From: a phage
Sequence record: PV419677.1
DNA: 64,000 bases
Strand: one strand, 5' to 3'
In this document: positions 3,707-49,562 of the stretch, one piece after another
How positions within the stretch are numbered: position 1 is the first letter of the stretch
How the letters are laid out: the number at the start of each line of letters is the position of its first letter
Translations under genes and position numbers: made by a program
Notes under the pieces: model-generated
What the model was told of the DNA's origin: nothing
Database searches by the model: none
Seen by the model: only the letters and a program-made list of their open reading frames with translations

Positions 3707-4321
3707 TTAGTTCAAAACAGTCAAATGCCAAACAGTATACAGGTTATTCAATGGGTGTGTTTCAATCAAGTCTACGCGGAGCGTAGTCCCAGCGGGAAAC
3801 ATAAACTCATCTTCATCATTAACCAGGTGCAAGTTTGACTTCCTGGTTGCTTCTGGATATGCACCATTGAACTCTTCAGGAGGAGCACCACAAATCATTT
3901 TGAAGATTGCTTCCTGATAGTTATACGCATATGGTGCATTGTTTATGCAGAAAATATTCCTTGTTCCATAGAAACTGTATGATGCGAAATTTCTTGCAAC
4001 CTGCCAGTCCCTGGAAAAACTCATTACACGATTGAATTCAATTGTTGCCCCAACATATCTTAAATCTTCCAGGTATTCCATAGTTTTCTTTGATATACCA
4101 CGGAACAACGCCGCTGGCGGGGCAGTATTCAGATTGTTGCGGATAATCCTGGACAAGTCTTCTTGAATCAGGTCAGGTTTATTTTCCATACACTGCCAGA
4201 GTACTGATTGCTCATTATCTGTATAAAGAGCATCAATCTCCGCTTGACATTGGTTACGAAAAGACTCACTAGAAGCGGCGGTGTCAATAATTCCATTCAA
4301 AACGTCATCAGTGTATAGCAT
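3707..4321 (-). CDS. modA: ADP-ribosyltransferase, ModA-like
   Basis: R-S-E signature (LFRG, SFS, EDEFMFP); about 204 aa after trimming start to ATG at 4319-4321 with SD; position as T4 modA. Confidence 0.65.
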   Translation of the reverse strand: MLYTDDVLNGIIDTAASSESFRNQCQAEIDALYTDNEQSVLWQCMENKPDLIQEDLSRIIRNNLNTAPPAALFRGISKKTMEYLEDLRYVGATIEFNRVMSFSRDWQVARNFASYSFYGTRNIFCINNAPYAYNYQEAIFKMICGAPPEEFNGAYPEATRKSNLHLVNDEDEFMFPAGTTLRVDLIETHPLNNLYTVWHLTVLN

Positions 4322-4352
4322 TTTATTATCCTCATCAGTAGTTGATAGGAAC

Positions 4353-4385
4353 ATCTTAACGTGTCTTATTGTTCTTGTACACAGT
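4353..4385 (-). promoter_or_regulatory. early promoter-like element upstream of modA
   Basis: TGTACA -35, 17-nt spacer, weaker -10 TAAGAT, then conserved CTATCAACTACTGATGAGG leader. Confidence 0.35.
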
Positions 4386-4926
4386 CAAGAACATAATAAT
4401 CATCAATAAATCCAGCATCAACTACCACGAATTTCTGGTCAACTGGAACAAACCATTCAAGCTCGGAATCAATCATGTCCATGTATTCTTCACGCCTTAA
4501 TGTAGCTGCCCGGTCGGAACCAGAAGCTGTATTGAAGAATTCAAGTGGAACATCAAGTGCGATTTTGCGCATCGCATCATGGTAACAAAAAGCTTTGGTC
4601 TGATTCAATCTGACGATAGTCCTAGTCACATATTCCATTGCAGCAAAATCCCTGGCAATACCATAGTCTTCTGTAAAGGAGGTTATCCGTCCAAATTCAA
4701 AAGGTTGCATTGATTCTTTTGCTTCATCTAACAAATCAATCTCTTGCTGGGTTACTCCGCGCCACAAGACTGTATCGGGTATAGACAACCTTGACTTGAT
4801 GATTGAGTTGACATTTGAATGCAAGGTCTTATCAACCTTTGATGTGCGGCATTCAAATAATGAAGCTATCTCCATTTCACTAAATTTTAACTGGTTGGGT
4901 TCGGTATCAGATTTGATGATGTTCAT
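4366..4926 (-). CDS. modB: ADP-ribosyltransferase, ModB-like
   Basis: 186 aa, similar architecture to the adjacent ModA-like gene (LWRG, SFTEDYGIARDF, acidic C-terminal E-x-E region). Confidence 0.6.
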   Translation of the reverse strand: MNIIKSDTEPNQLKFSEMEIASLFECRTSKVDKTLHSNVNSIIKSRLSIPDTVLWRGVTQQEIDLLDEAKESMQPFEFGRITSFTEDYGIARDFAAMEYVTRTIVRLNQTKAFCYHDAMRKIALDVPLEFFNTASGSDRAATLRREEYMDMIDSELEWFVPVDQKFVVVDAGFIDDYYVLDCVQEQ

Positions 4927-45268: not shown

Positions 45269-45340
45269 AAGGACTCCTATTGTTGGTCATGATTACGCTT
45301 TGCAGCCTTAACATAGCGGAATACTAGTTAGTAACTGTAT

Positions 45341-45616
45341 TTATAGACGTTTAAAATTAAAGCAGTACTCTGAAAATAAACCTGCAAAATTACGTTCAAC
45401 CCAGACCCGTTGTTTTGGGCTAGTGACCATTGACAAATAGTATGCTTGTTGCAGGCTTATTCCATTTTTATTAGGACACTCTTTGTTGAACGAGTGATAG
45501 GTACTTGCAACGATTTCGACTTCGCGCTCATACCTTTCCTGGTCCTGCTGCATAGGAACAAAAACCAAAACCAGGAATATCAAAATAGAGATATACGTCC
45601 AAACCTTGTATACCAT
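45341..45616 (-). CDS. small membrane-anchored protein
   Basis: 91 aa; N-terminal hydrophobic helix. Confidence 0.4.
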   Translation of the reverse strand: MVYKVWTYISILIFLVLVFVPMQQDQERYEREVEIVASTYHSFNKECPNKNGISLQQAYYLSMVTSPKQRVWVERNFAGLFSEYCFNFKRL

Positions 45617-45623
45617 GCGAACC

Positions 45624-46196
45624 TCAGCTTGTTAATTCGAGCCAATGTTTTCTGCACAAAGATACGTACGATTCATTCCCACCGACCAATACTTGCTCGC
45701 CGTCCTTTACAGCAGCACCGTCGATTACTCGAGCGGTCATGGTTGCTTTCCGGCCGCAATGGCAGACGCCCTTTAATTCAACCAGTTTATCCGAAATAGC
45801 CAGAAGTCTGGCTGAACCGGGAAATAATTGACCCCGAAAATCTGTTCTTAACCCGTAACACATAACGGGGATATTGTAATTATCGACCACTTGAGCTAAC
45901 TGGTCAATTTGCTCTGGTAACAAAAATTGAGCTTCATCGACCAGGACACAATGGATATCCTTTTGAGACTCGGCCCATTTATAGAATTCAAACAGGTTCA
46001 TGTCGGCCGTTACCAGGTTTGCTTCCTGGCTAATACCGATGCGTGATTTAATTTCAGATTCCGAGTCCCGATTATCAATAACAGGTTTTAGCAAAAGCAC
46101 ACTCATTCCACGCTCTTTATAGGAATAAGCTGCAGTCAGCAATGAAGCTGTTTTGCCTGCATTCATTGCTGCGTAATGATAAATTAAACTCGCCAT
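45624..46196 (-). CDS. tk: thymidine kinase
   Basis: 190 aa; P-loop YAAMNAGKT, conserved C-terminal cysteines; colinear with remembered T4 Tk. Confidence 0.9.
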   Translation of the reverse strand: MASLIYHYAAMNAGKTASLLTAAYSYKERGMSVLLLKPVIDNRDSESEIKSRIGISQEANLVTADMNLFEFYKWAESQKDIHCVLVDEAQFLLPEQIDQLAQVVDNYNIPVMCYGLRTDFRGQLFPGSARLLAISDKLVELKGVCHCGRKATMTARVIDGAAVKDGEQVLVGGNESYVSLCRKHWLELTS

Positions 46197-46205
46197 ATCA
46201 CCTTC

Positions 46206-46391
46206 TTAAAGCGTATTCACATAAGCTATTAATTCGTTTTCTTTCTCGTCAAATCGACTAGCAAATTCTTCCAGATGGTCGGCATCTATTGGGCCATATT
46301 CATCGTAAAAAGCGTTTGCTTCGGCATGCTCTTCCAAAAGCTCATGGATGAGCTCAAACAATCTACTTTTCTGACTAATACTTAAACTCAT
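46206..46391 (-). CDS. hypothetical acidic protein
   Basis: 61 aa ORF. Confidence 0.35.
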   Translation of the reverse strand: MSLSISQKSRLFELIHELLEEHAEANAFYDEYGPIDADHLEEFASRFDEKENELIAYVNTL

Positions 46392-46594
46392 TTCGGTTCA
46401 CCATATCGCACAAATTTAGGATGTTCGCAATAACCAGAATGAAAACCTTCACCCTTATGATTAGAACATCCTTTATTAGAACAGTACCACCAGTAATCAT
46501 ATTCGCAATTCATTTCATCATTGCATAAAGCTGCGATTACTGGCCATTCGCATTTTTCACATTTGGCCGTTTTAAGAATTCGGGCTTGGCTCAT
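46388..46594 (-). CDS. cysteine-rich small protein
   Basis: 68 aa, 9 cysteines. Confidence 0.4.
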   Translation of the reverse strand: MSQARILKTAKCEKCEWPVIAALCNDEMNCEYDYWWYCSNKGCSNHKGEGFHSGYCEHPKFVRYGEPK

Positions 46595-47045
46595 AATCCA
46601 CCACTATTAAATCAATGTCAGGAGTAAACATATCAATTAATTTAGAAACCTTTTCCCAATCTCCACCTGCAATACCACAACCAATACGCGGAATATAAAT
46701 TACCGGTTTAAACAAAAGGGTTTCTGCTTGTAGATTTAATTCTATCATACAATTTACTAAAGCACCATAATCAAGATTAGGGCCCGGTTCATATTGGGTG
46801 TACAAATTATAACACATACCAAACCCATTGGGCTTATGTTTAAAAACAATAGACATATCACCGAGTTTTTCTCTGGAACCGTATTCAGTAGTGGTTTTAT
46901 CTATTTCTAAAACTTTTGGATAAGCCTTCGCCAACTGTCCGGCAACACCAGAACCCATTGTGTGGAAGCAGTTACAACCATGGGCAATAATATTACCTTG
47001 AAGAAAGAGGGCGACGATATCGCCCTTAATATACTGGGTAATCAT
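46572..47045 (-). CDS. macro domain protein (TARG1/OARD1-like)
   Basis: 157 aa; IKGDIVALF...HGCNCFHTMGSGVAG and PRIGCGIAGGDWEKV resemble the TARG1 motifs CRMGAGIA and PRIGCGLDRLQWENV. Confidence 0.55.
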   Translation of the reverse strand: MITQYIKGDIVALFLQGNIIAHGCNCFHTMGSGVAGQLAKAYPKVLEIDKTTTEYGSREKLGDMSIVFKHKPNGFGMCYNLYTQYEPGPNLDYGALVNCMIELNLQAETLLFKPVIYIPRIGCGIAGGDWEKVSKLIDMFTPDIDLIVVDYEPSPNS

Positions 47046-47401
47046 TTAGAGTTCAATCCTCTATTATATGAATCCACTAACCTGTCAACCATACTGGTGC
47101 AGGCCGCCTTATATTTTGCACTTGACAGAATGCAATCCATTTCAAATAATTTCTTTTCATATTTGTTGGATAATACATTCTTTTTCAAAAGCGTATGTTC
47201 AACATCATTTTGGCCATCTTTATAGGCTGCAGTGAGCTTGGCACTGAACTGGATTACACAATCCACATTGCTTGCTGCGCAATAATCTTTGGCCGTCCTC
47301 GTTGCATATTCTATGATGCTGTTGTTGTCGTCGCTCTGTACTGAAGCTATTCCTCCCATGCTGAATACTAACCCTATGGCTAAAGTGATAACTCTTACCA
47401 T
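47042..47401 (-). CDS. secreted/periplasmic protein
   Basis: 119 aa; N-terminal signal peptide, several cysteines. Confidence 0.45.
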   Translation of the reverse strand: MVRVITLAIGLVFSMGGIASVQSDDNNSIIEYATRTAKDYCAASNVDCVIQFSAKLTAAYKDGQNDVEHTLLKKNVLSNKYEKKLFEMDCILSSAKYKAACTSMVDRLVDSYNRGLNSK

Positions 47402-47403
47402 TT

Positions 47404-47946
47404 TTAATCCACCGTTTTTAATAGGCCTCGTGATTTCAAGTAGTTAGCTTTTTCTAGGACCTGTGAAGCATACGTATTACCAGCTTTCACATTCCACCCT
47501 GCGTTATATGATGATAGTGTTTTTCTTATATCCCCCTTATGAATATTCAACCAGTATGAAAGCTCAATATAAGCCCAGCGTGCACTGTTCTCTCTCTTGC
47601 TTATCATCTTGATTATTTCTTTATCTGTCATTGTCCACCCAACCTGTTTCACTCGTTCGCGTACGGTTGGAAGATAATTTTGGAATATACCATATGCATG
47701 ATGCTTATCTTTATTTAATCCAGTATTAATCCCAGCAGAACTCTCCTGCCAGGTTAAACCAGCCATGATATATCCCAAACCATTATGTTGGTGCGGATTT
47801 TCTTTGTACTTACCATTTTTCTGGAATTGTTCTCCAAACGCATAAGCATATTGGAGGTTTTCCATTTGTTCATTACTGAAAGTAGGCTCTACGCTATGGG
47901 CAGACATACTAACTGTCAATAGTAAGGTGGCGATTACTTTTTTCAT
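47404..47946 (-). CDS. secreted lytic transglycosylase-like (SLT domain) protein
   Basis: 180 aa; signal peptide; LTWQESSAG...AYGIFQ resembles the SLT catalytic E-S...GLMQ region. Confidence 0.5.
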   Translation of the reverse strand: MKKVIATLLLTVSMSAHSVEPTFSNEQMENLQYAYAFGEQFQKNGKYKENPHQHNGLGYIMAGLTWQESSAGINTGLNKDKHHAYGIFQNYLPTVRERVKQVGWTMTDKEIIKMISKRENSARWAYIELSYWLNIHKGDIRKTLSSYNAGWNVKAGNTYASQVLEKANYLKSRGLLKTVD

Positions 47947-47956
47947 GAATTCCCCA

Positions 47957-48415
47957 TTAGATATAAATCACTTTTGTGCTAATTTTTCCTTCCAGACGAT
48001 TAGAGTTAACAAACGCCATACGACAACACATGGTCGGAGACTTCCCAGGAATAGCGGGGTTAACTGTCATTCCTAACCACAGGTTCTTGTCTGTGATTTC
48101 CAGACGAAGTGGACGGTAGTTCACATTCGGGTCAATTTGTGCTTCAACTTCCGGGAGTGGTTTCATTTCCAGGAATTCAACGATTTCTTTTACATGTGGT
48201 GTGATTTTTCCAAACAAGTCAAAAACATATTGTTCATCAATTTCACGTTGGATTGCACGGTCCAACAGGTGCGGACTGTACTTAATGAAGAATGCTTCAA
48301 GGCCTGCTTCTTTACAAGCCTTGTTGATAGCATTATTAATTTTGAGGAACTCCGTTTCAAAAATGCGACGAAGTTTATTGCGGCGAATGTAAACACTTGA
48401 ATCGATAGTAGTCAT
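47957..48415 (-). CDS. hypothetical protein
   Basis: start trimmed to ATG 48413-48415 with AAGGAG SD; early promoter-like motif at 48425-48480. Confidence 0.45.
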   Translation of the reverse strand: MTTIDSSVYIRRNKLRRIFETEFLKINNAINKACKEAGLEAFFIKYSPHLLDRAIQREIDEQYVFDLFGKITPHVKEIVEFLEMKPLPEVEAQIDPNVNYRPLRLEITDKNLWLGMTVNPAIPGKSPTMCCRMAFVNSNRLEGKISTKVIYI

Positions 48416-48471
48416 GATTATCTCCTTTTGTTTGATGGGATAATCATAACTCATTTCAATCTGCTTGTACA

Positions 48472-49051
<580 letters not shown>

Positions 49052-49055
<4 letters not shown>

Positions 49056-49285
49056 TTCACTTCCTCGCCAGTTGCGATATCATATTCCACCAAACGAATG
49101 CCGTCAGTCCAACCTTGCACGGAGATATAAGTAGTTGGATAAATCATTTCTTTACCATTCCACTGACCGCCATTCCAGACTTCCAGAAAGTCTTGTTCAC
49201 CGGGTCCATTAAACCATTCAACAAATCTTTTCAGAGCTGCGTCAGAACCTTCAATAGTCAATTTAGACATATTTTTTCCAGTCAC
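49052..49285 (-). CDS. hypothetical protein
   Basis: 77 aa ORF. Confidence 0.4.
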
Positions 49286-49562
49286 TAATTAATCGCACAT
49301 CCTGGTCATAGGTCAGGAGGCTACGAGTTATAATACCCTTACACGGTCCAGAAATAAATTCCAGAGTAAAGTAAGGAACCAACTTCATCAAGCGAATACT
49401 CGGAGCAGTGCAACGAAATCTGGACCCAATAAAAGGTCCAGACAAAAACACATACTCAAAGAAATTAGCTTTATTAAAGATTTCATAATTCTTTACGAAA
49501 TCCTCAGACCGAACCTTTGGGCTAAAATAGATTTGGTCAAAAAGCTCTTCATGGGTCATCAT
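49263..49562 (-). CDS. hypothetical protein
   Basis: 99 aa ORF. Confidence 0.4.
   Translation of the reverse strand: MMTHEELFDQIYFSPKVRSEDFVKNYEIFNKANFFEYVFLSGPFIGSRFRCTAPSIRLMKLVPYFTLEFISGPCKGIITRSLLTYDQDVRLISDWKKYV

What the first reader, a model, noticed from the sequence alone, without database searches (positions are those of the whole stretch)
46572..47045. TARG1-like macro domain alongside R-S-E ADP-ribosyltransferases
The macro domain protein (HGCNC...MGSGVAG and PRIGCGIAGG motifs) is a candidate ADP-ribose eraser in a genome that also encodes ModA/ModB-like writers at 3707-4926. It could reverse host or phage ADP-ribosylation, including defence-system ADP-ribosylation.
Basis: partly seen in the sequence, partly recalled or inferred. 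Interest (0 to 1): 0.45.

Follow-up and report, generated by a model that had tools for sequence, protein, structure and literature searches.

The report
T-even phage Tk.4/AdfM macrodomain ortholog
This gene is the counterpart, in a T4-like phage, of T4 tk.4 (AdfM), an ADP-ribose-removing enzyme already shown genetically to protect T4 from the bacterial DarTG2 defence that ADP-ribosylates DNA, so it is real but ordinary.

Summary
Window 46572-47045 (-) is an intact 157-aa ORF with a macro domain (Pfam PF01661, 35 bits against a cut-off of 22). The AlphaFold2 model has pLDDT 94.5. Its nearest solved folds are BT1257, DarG, Poa1p and TARG1. The quoted motifs are present, and two Mod-type R-S-EXE ADP-ribosyltransferases lie at 3707-4926.

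The window is a Gaprivervirus-like T-even phage (96% nucleotide identity to SP18). The gene is the syntenic ortholog of T4 tk.4 (56% identity, same regB-vs.1-vs-tk.4-tk.3-tk.2-tk order). A 2025 preprint showed that a T4 tk.4 knockout becomes sensitive to DarTG2 and named the gene adfM.

The active site is not TARG1- or DarG-type. The catalytic Lys is replaced by an invariant Gln (Q84), and TARG1 Asp125 by Ala. SCO6735 has the same pattern; its Gln85 is essential, and it cleaves thymidine-linked ADP-ribose on DNA.

The most likely function is reversal of DarT2 ADP-ribosylation of phage ssDNA. No evidence supports an eraser role for the phage's own Mod enzymes. Tk.4-like macro domains occur in 2765 phage records, but Mod-like enzymes in only 1013.

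Verdict: already known, low interest.

The parts
46572..47045 (-). tk.4 / adfM ortholog: a 157-aa stand-alone macro domain protein
   Evidence: ORF. Pfam Macro at 35 bits against a cut-off of 22. 56% identity over 153 aa to T4 Tk.4, E 1e-68. Same gene order as T4 and SP18. AlphaFold2 pLDDT 94.5.
46968..46982 (-). H22-G-C-N25-C motif. N25 is the conserved active-site Asn, equivalent to PhiKZ AdfM N23 and SCO6735 N27. H22 is equivalent to Poa1p H23.
   Evidence: H22 and N25 are invariant in 76 homologs. The Poa1p H23A and S30A mutant chains align to H22 and T29. N23A reduces PhiKZ AdfM activity. SCO6735 N27S nearly abolishes activity.
46938..46958 (-). M30-G-S-G-V-A-G36, the first glycine-rich ADP-ribose (phosphate) binding loop
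   Evidence: G31, G33 and A35 are invariant or nearly so. The loop aligns with VMGKGIA of DarG and MGAGIA of TARG1.
46794..46808 (-). N80-L-Y-T-Q84. Q84 sits at the position of the catalytic Lys of TARG1 (K84) and DarG (K80), the same substitution as Gln85 in SCO6735.
   Evidence: The profile alignment to TARG1 pairs 'lYtQ' with 'LITK', and BT1257 also has Q there. Q84 is invariant in 76 phage and metagenome homologs and in 80 of 80 bacterial relatives. Gln85 of SCO6735 is essential (PMC9411070).
46662..46691 (-). P119-R-I-G-C-G-I-A-G-G128, the second glycine-rich loop. A126 sits at the position of TARG1 D125.
   Evidence: Nearly identical to SCO6735 PRIGCGLAGG and BT1257 PRIGCGLAGG. TARG1 has PRIGCGLDRL at this site.

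Best explanation
The gene is the ortholog of phage T4 tk.4, recently named adfM (anti-DarT factor, macrodomain). It sits in the tk-vs-regB block of small genes, all on the minus strand.

When the host carries a DarTG2 toxin-antitoxin system, infection frees DarT2. DarT2 ADP-ribosylates thymidines in TNTC motifs of single-stranded phage DNA and blocks replication. The macro domain binds the ADP-ribose through its two glycine-rich loops and hydrolyses the thymidine-ribose bond, restoring normal DNA.

The chemistry is probably that proposed for SCO6735 rather than for DarG or TARG1. There is no catalytic lysine. Instead Gln84, held in place by Asn25, positions the distal ribose for attack by water.

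Shown here: the ORF, the fold, the class, the residue pattern and orthology with T4 tk.4. Shown elsewhere: the DarTG2 sensitivity of the T4 tk.4 knockout, and DNA de-ADP-ribosylation by the Gln-type enzyme SCO6735. Inferred: that this protein, and T4 Tk.4 itself, act enzymatically on thymidine-ADP-ribose in DNA.
For: Orthology: 56% identity over 153 aa to T4 Tk.4 with no gaps, and the same gene order regB-vs.1-vs-tk.4-tk.3-tk.2-tk-rI as T4 and SP18.

T4 phenotype: tk.4 was the single significant hit when a T4 transposon library was grown on a DarTG2 host, and a clean knockout is sensitised.

Active site: N25, Q84 and the PRIGCGIAGG loop match SCO6735 and BT1257. In SCO6735, Gln85-to-Ala abolishes activity, N27S nearly abolishes it, the enzyme cleaves DarT-made dT-ADP-ribose on DNA, and it protects cells from DarT (PMC9411070; PMC12879935).

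An unrelated phage macrodomain, PhiKZ gp104, removes DarT2 marks in vitro, so the strategy itself is established.
Against: No biochemical assay exists for T4 Tk.4 or for this protein. The preprint says only that enzymatic removal 'seems likely'.

The DarG catalytic lysine is absent.

The loop after Q84 is short and non-basic (QYEPGPNLDY) in T-even copies. Bacterial relatives have a longer basic loop, and in SCO6735 the Lys89 of that loop matters for activity on DNA.

Identity to T4 Tk.4 is 56%, so specificity could differ.

The DarTG2 phenotype comes from a preprint and one DarTG2 system, under special conditions (M9 glucose, 30 C).
Confidence: 0.75

Rival explanations
1. The protein counters DarTG2 mainly by binding and blocking DarT2, acting as a stoichiometric antitoxin mimic. 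Hydrolysis would be dispensable or secondary.
For: Catalytically dead SCO6735 Q85A, DarG K80A and TARG1 K84A all still inhibit DarT in vitro, and SCO6735 does so most strongly. ICP1 AdfB counters DarT through direct interaction. The DNA-facing loop of the T-even copies is short and non-basic.
Against: H22, N25, Q84 and both glycine loops are invariant across phage, metagenome and bacterial relatives. That conservation points to selection on the ADP-ribose site, not on a DarT-binding surface. The protein lacks the C-terminal DarT-binding domain of DarG (157 aa; NCBIfam DarG 31.5 bits against a cut-off of 250).
Confidence: 0.1
2. It is a small-molecule ADP-ribose metabolite enzyme, as the old 'A1pp phosphatase' annotation implies. 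Possible substrates are ADP-ribose-1''-phosphate (as for Poa1p), O-acetyl-ADP-ribose, or an ADP-ribose-derived immune signal.
For: Sequence similarity to yeast Poa1p (E 1.7e-9). The equivalents of Poa1p residues H23 and S30 are H22 and T29. T4 and PHROG annotations say 'phosphatase'. Iyer and colleagues argue that many viral macro domains may act on soluble ADP-ribose derivatives.
Against: In T4 the gene's only known conditional phenotype is against DarTG2, a system that modifies DNA. From general knowledge, no source of ADP-ribose-1''-phosphate is known in T-even infection.
Confidence: 0.07
3. It is the eraser for the phage's own writers (Alt, ModA, ModB). It would remove ADP-ribose or RNA-linked ADP-ribose from host proteins and so tune the takeover programme.
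For: ModA- and ModB-like ADP-ribosyltransferases are encoded in the same genome at 3707-4926. SCO6735 and TARG1 also act on some protein substrates.
Against: The Mod genes are 42 kb away in a separate gene cluster. The macro family occurs in about 1750 more phage records than Mod-like proteins do, including whole phage groups where the ModA search found no Mod-like match. From general knowledge, Mod and Alt modify arginine, a linkage removed by ARH/DraG-type enzymes and not by TARG1-class macro domains. No such phenotype is reported for T4 tk.4.
Confidence: 0.04

Closest known systems
Phage T4 Tk.4 = AdfM (anti-DarT factor macrodomain; bioRxiv 10.1101/2025.11.20.689424)
   Same: 56% identical over the full length with no gaps. 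Same position between vs and tk.3. Same H-G-C-N-C, Y-T-Q and P-R-I-G-x-G motifs.
   Different: The second glycine loop differs: GCGIAGG here, GAGIGKG in T4. The copy here is closer to the SCO6735/BT1257 consensus. No phenotype has been measured for this phage.
Streptomyces coelicolor SCO6735 (PDB 5E3B) and Bacteroides BT1257 (2FG1/2AFC): Gln-type ALC1/TARG1-like macrodomains
   Different: Only about 27-31% identity. The loop after the Gln is shorter and lacks the basic residues found in bacterial relatives, such as SCO6735 Lys89. This one is phage-encoded and used as a counter-defence.
DarG (DarG2) antitoxin macrodomain (PDB 5M31, 5M3I, 7OMU)
   Different: DarG has the FPTK catalytic lysine and a C-terminal DarT-binding domain, and it is encoded next to DarT. 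None of these holds here.
PhiKZ gp104, also named AdfM (Cell Rep 2026, PMC13309987)
   Same: A phage stand-alone macro domain that counters DarTG2. Its in vitro removal of DarT2 marks from DNA has been shown.
   Different: It belongs to a different subclade. gp104 is Lys-type and close to DarG (E 9e-25 to Mtb DarG). It is only marginally similar to this protein (BLASTP E 1e-3 over short segments). The two 'AdfM' proteins are therefore probably independent acquisitions.
Human TARG1/OARD1 (PDB 4J5R)
   Same: Top Foldseek hit (E 7e-10, TM 0.73-0.82). TARG1 also reverses thymidine-linked ADP-ribose on DNA.
   Different: The TARG1 catalytic dyad K84/D125 corresponds to Q84/A126 here.

Membership tests
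Macro domain superfamily (Pfam PF01661) | Profile match above the curated gathering score | tested here: met
   35 bits against a cut-off of 22, covering profile positions 2-117 of 118
Macro domain superfamily (Pfam PF01661) | Three-layer alpha/beta macro fold with two glycine-rich ADP-ribose-binding loops | tested here: met
ALC1/TARG1-like macrodomain class (TARG1, DarG, SCO6735, BT1257, Poa1p) | Closest structural and sequence neighbours are members of this class, separated from other macro classes | tested here: met
TARG1 proper | Catalytic Lys84/Asp125 dyad | tested here: not met
   The profile alignment puts Q84 opposite K84 and A126 opposite D125
DarG (DarG2) antitoxin | Catalytic Lys (Taq K80) in the FPTK motif | tested here: not met
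   The sequence is LYTQ in place of FPTK
DarG (DarG2) antitoxin | C-terminal DarT-binding domain, adjacency to darT, and NCBIfam equivalog score | tested here: not met
   The protein is 157 aa. NF048014 gives 31.5 bits against a cut-off of 250, matching only model positions 3-149 of 338. The flanking genes are vs and tk.3.
Gln-type subgroup (SCO6735/BT1257-like) | Gln at the catalytic-Lys position, Asn that positions it, and the PRIGCGxAGG loop | tested here: met
   Q84 and N25 are invariant in 76 homologs and in 80 of 80 bacterial relatives. Loop identity to SCO6735 and BT1257 is shown. The roles of these residues come from PMC9411070.
Gln-type subgroup (SCO6735/BT1257-like) | Hydrolysis of thymidine-linked ADP-ribose on ssDNA | not testable with these tools
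   Needs a gel-shift or AMP-Glo assay on a DarT2-modified oligonucleotide
T4 Tk.4/AdfM orthologous group | Full-length similarity and conserved genomic position | tested here: met
   56% identity over 153 aa, E 1e-68. The order regB-vs.1-vs-tk.4-tk.3-tk.2-tk is shared.
T4 Tk.4/AdfM orthologous group | Required for growth on DarTG2-carrying hosts | not testable with these tools
   Shown only for T4
Poa1p-type ADP-ribose-1''-phosphate phosphatase | Residues H23 and S30 that were probed by mutation in Poa1p, and Appr1p phosphatase activity | tested here: inconclusive
   H22 aligns with H23 and T29 with S30. Activity cannot be tested here. H22 is also conserved in TARG1, so it does not discriminate.

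The most novel reading that the evidence does not exclude
The T-even clade of Gln-type macrodomains has a characteristically short, non-basic loop after the catalytic Gln. It may not be a dedicated DarT2 antidote. It could be a broader eraser that also removes other nucleic-acid or protein ADP-ribose marks, for example uracil-linked RNA ADP-ribosylation or marks from defence transferases not yet described. In that case its origin would be the stand-alone bacterial 'immunity-like' macro proteins rather than a captured DarG antitoxin.
Probability: 0.15. Interest if true: 0.5.

Novelty: already known. Interest (0 to 1): 0.15.

Why it matters
It matters little beyond annotation. The gene should be labelled as the tk.4/adfM ortholog, a probable anti-DarTG2 DNA ADP-ribosylglycohydrolase, rather than 'phosphatase' or 'hypothetical protein'.

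Two small points may interest specialists. First, T4-type AdfM belongs to the lysine-less, Gln-type branch exemplified by SCO6735. The other protein named AdfM, PhiKZ gp104, is a lysine-type DarG relative. Phages therefore appear to have recruited two different macrodomain lineages against the same toxin. Second, the closest bacterial relatives are stand-alone genes with no DarT next to them. That argues against simple capture of a DarG antitoxin.

Tried and rejected
1. The promoter and terminator scan of 45300-49300 was uninformative: 11 promoter-like sites against 11.7 expected by shuffling. No statement about transcription is made from it.

2. MAFFT alignment of seven distant macrodomains placed a gap at the catalytic position. 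I therefore relied on the HMMER profile alignments and on the published structure-based alignment.

3. I could not print a full alignment to SCO6735. Only the C-terminal loop segment was recovered, so the Q84/Gln85 equivalence rests on the shared alignment to TARG1 K84 and BT1257 Q plus the paper's statement.

4. tblastn with one P. aeruginosa DarT2 sequence against 80 bacterial loci found nothing (best E 0.67). There was no positive control, because only one genome scan was allowed, so divergent DarT genes could have been missed. A Pfam scan of 110 immediate neighbours showed no recurrent partner, but only the 25 commonest of 121 families were listed.

5. I rejected filing the protein as TARG1 or DarG, because the defining catalytic residues and domain architecture are not met.

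6. I rejected the Mod-eraser framing on distribution and linkage chemistry.

7. The papers on CmdTAC, NADAR (AdfN) and ICP1 AdfB contain nothing about tk.4.

Full report
**Observation.** The window carries an ATG-to-TAA ORF of 157 aa at 46572-47045 on the minus strand. I checked them against the DNA.

- Pfam's Macro model matches above its curated threshold (35 against 22 bits, almost the whole profile).
- PHROG 335 matches at E 9.5e-71.
- tblastn finds relatives in 2765 of 50,697 phage records.
- An AlphaFold2 model built on 76 homologs is confident (mean pLDDT 94.5, pTM 0.89).
- Foldseek places it with TARG1, Poa1p, BT1257 and DarG (E 7e-10 to 3e-8).

So 'TARG1-like macro domain' is an accurate description of the fold class. 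The ORFs at 3707-4354 and 4366-4926 match the phage RNA-polymerase ADP-ribosylase family (PHROG 832, E 1e-38 and 7e-28). They are annotated modA and modB in SP18 and other near-identical phages. They show R, S-x-[ST] and E-x-E motifs.

**Genomic identity.** The window is a T-even phage. The 4 kb around the gene is 96% identical to Shigella phage SP18 (Gaprivervirus, Tevenvirinae) and its relatives. The protein is 100% identical to one encoded by Shigella phage fPSFA.

The local gene order is regB (47957-48472), vs.1 (47404-47946), vs (47042-47401), the macro gene, a small zinc-binding ORF (46388-46594), tk.2 (46206-46391), tk (45624-46196) and rI. All are on the minus strand. This is the order in T4, where the gene in that position is tk.4, and in SP18. 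The protein is 56% identical to T4 Tk.4 over 153 residues without a gap (E 1e-68). It is therefore the tk.4 ortholog. Its start codon overlaps the stop of vs (ATGA). Its last 23 bases overlap the next ORF, as is usual in these tightly packed T-even gene blocks.

**What is known about tk.4.** A 2025 preprint on transposon mapping of phage gene essentiality (HIDEN-SEQ, bioRxiv 10.1101/2025.11.20.689424) grew a T4 insertion library on E. coli expressing DarTG2. It found tk.4 as the single significant hit. A clean knockout became sensitive to DarTG2. The authors named the gene adfM (anti-DarT factor macrodomain) and noted its structural similarity to the M. tuberculosis DarG macrodomain. They proposed, without an assay, that it removes ADP-ribose from DNA.

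DarT2 ADP-ribosylates thymidine in TNTC motifs of single-stranded DNA, and DarG2 macrodomains reverse this. T4's other antidote, the NADAR protein AdfN (gene 30.3), deals with the guanine-specific DarT1. A separate study gave the same name, AdfM, to PhiKZ gp104. It showed in vitro that gp104 removes DarT2 marks from an oligonucleotide, with reduced activity in the N23A mutant.

**Active site and likely chemistry.** This is where the gene differs from the proteins it is usually compared with.

- HMMER profile alignment of the family against the PDB pairs the family's invariant L-Y-T-Q84 with TARG1's L-I-T-K84, and G-x-G-I-A126-G-G with TARG1's G-C-G-L-D125-R-L. BT1257 also has Gln at the first site. 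Both residues of the TARG1 catalytic dyad are therefore absent, as is the single catalytic lysine of DarG (FPTK).
- Q84, N25 and H22 are invariant in 76 phage and metagenome homologs.
- Q84 is present in 80 of 80 bacterial relatives, which were retrieved with patterns that did not include it.
- The second glycine loop, PRIGCGIAGGDW, is almost identical to PRIGCGLAGGTW of Streptomyces SCO6735 and PRIGCGLAGGKW of BT1257.

Hlousek-Kasun and colleagues (PMC9411070) showed that SCO6735 has Gln85 at the lysine position. Gln85-to-Ala abolishes activity, and Asn27 (our N25) holds Gln85 in place; N27S nearly abolishes activity. The enzyme cleaves DarT-made thymidine-ADP-ribose on DNA and protects cells from DarT. 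They proposed a water-mediated mechanism in which Gln positions the distal ribose. SCO6735's activity on synthetic dT-ADP-ribose substrates was confirmed later.

The simplest reading is that the T-even Tk.4 family works like SCO6735: a lysine-less, Gln-type DNA ADP-ribosylglycohydrolase. This step is inferred, not shown.

**Relation to DarG and to the other AdfM.** PhiKZ gp104 is a close, lysine-type relative of DarG (E 9e-25 to Mtb DarG). It is barely similar to the protein here (BLASTP E 1e-3 over short segments). The NCBIfam DarG equivalog model scores only 31.5 bits against a cut-off of 250 and matches only the macro half.

I fetched 80 bacterial genome loci encoding relatives of the T-even protein (33-44% identity).

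- All are stand-alone ORFs, with a median length of 154 aa.
- A tblastn search with a DarT2 sequence taken from PMC13309987 found nothing (best E 0.67).
- A Pfam scan of 110 immediate neighbours found 121 different families, none in more than five loci. NADAR was next door in two loci.

There are caveats: one DarT query, no positive control, and crude ORF calling. With those in mind, this suggests that T4-type AdfM descends from, or is shared with, the stand-alone SCO6735/BT1257-like lineage rather than a DarT-linked antitoxin. It also suggests that phages recruited two macrodomain lineages against DarT2.

**The Mod connection.** Nothing supports a writer-eraser pairing with ModA/ModB.

- The genes are 42 kb apart in different clusters.
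- ModA-like proteins are detectable in 1013 phage records, almost all phages of Enterobacterales.
- Tk.4-like macro domains occur in 2765 records, including Pseudomonas, Vibrio, Acinetobacter and Aeromonas phages and Felix-O1-like Salmonella phages.
- From general knowledge of the field, Alt, ModA and ModB make arginine-linked ADP-ribose, which ARH/DraG-type hydrolases remove and TARG1-class macro domains do not.

This rival is not excluded biochemically, but it is unlikely.

**Other rivals.**

- *Phosphatase.* The historical 'A1pp phosphatase' label reflects similarity to Poa1p (E 1.7e-9). The equivalents of Poa1p H23 and S30 are H22 and T29. H22 is also present in TARG1, and no source of ADP-ribose-1''-phosphate is known in T-even infection.
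- *Non-catalytic block of DarT2.* This is plausible as a contribution, because dead SCO6735, DarG and TARG1 all inhibit DarT in vitro. The strict conservation of the ADP-ribose site argues that catalysis is selected.

**Points against, or unexplained.**

- In T-even copies the loop following Q84 is short and non-basic (Q-[YF]-x-P-G-P-N-x-D-Y). Bacterial relatives carry a loop three or more residues longer and rich in Arg/Lys. In SCO6735 a lysine in that loop matters for DNA activity.
- The protein is acidic (calculated pI 5.1). So is PhiKZ gp104 (5.05), which does act on DNA.
- The T4 phenotype comes from a preprint, one DarTG2 system and special growth conditions.

**Verdict.** The finding is real and its cautious interpretation is largely right, but the gene is the ortholog of an already characterised T4 anti-defence gene. 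Novelty: already known. Interest: low (0.15). The residual points of interest are the lysine-less active site, the non-orthology of the two proteins named AdfM, and the absence of a direct enzymatic assay for the T4-type family.

Noticed in passing
window 46794-46808 (Q84 region); PhiKZ gp104 sequence from PMC13309987: Two phage proteins in the literature share the name AdfM but belong to different macrodomain subclades. T4 Tk.4 and this protein are Gln-type (LYTQ) and closest to BT1257 and SCO6735. PhiKZ gp104 is Lys-type (FPTK), with E 9e-25 to Mtb DarG. The two are only marginally similar to each other (BLASTP E 1e-3).
   Followed up: partly
loci L003-L082 (bacterial genomes), match at about 4001-4460 in most: Bacterial relatives of the T-even macro protein are stand-alone ORFs of about 150 aa. 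Gln is conserved at the catalytic position in 80 of 80. No DarT2 was detectable nearby and there is no recurrent neighbour. A NADAR gene is adjacent in 2 loci.
   Followed up: partly
window 46779-46793 (residues 85-89) compared with L003-L082: The loop after the catalytic Gln is short and non-basic in T-even copies (QYEPGPNLDY). In bacterial relatives it is three or more residues longer and rich in Arg/Lys (for example QFHWRGRGPKVDY). The equivalent loop of SCO6735 carries a Lys important for DNA activity.
   Followed up: partly
window 46388-46594 (-): Only one small zinc-binding ORF (PF23895, E 1.4e-29) lies between tk.2 and tk.4. SP18 has two small ORFs there (gp111 and tk.3). This is an indel of about 210 bp, and it explains the two-piece megablast alignments.
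   Followed up: no
window 47042-47401 (-): The vs gene (valyl-tRNA synthetase modifier, PHROG 1256) ends in an ATGA overlap with the tk.4 start. The same preprint reports that T4 vs is the most strongly depleted gene in minimal medium.
   Followed up: no
window 3707-4354 and 4366-4926 (-): There are two paralogous Mod-type ADP-ribosyltransferases with R / S-x-[ST] / E-x-E motifs. Database records disagree on which is modA and which is modB: the 215-aa protein is 'modA' in SP18 but 'modB' in EAWsc9, and its best T4 match is modB.
   Followed up: partly
window 47404-47946 (-): The Vs.1 homolog (PHROG 600, function unknown) has no Pfam hit. It begins with a hydrophobic, signal-peptide-like N-terminus, and one related record annotates it as a lytic transglycosylase (SLT) domain protein.
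   Followed up: no
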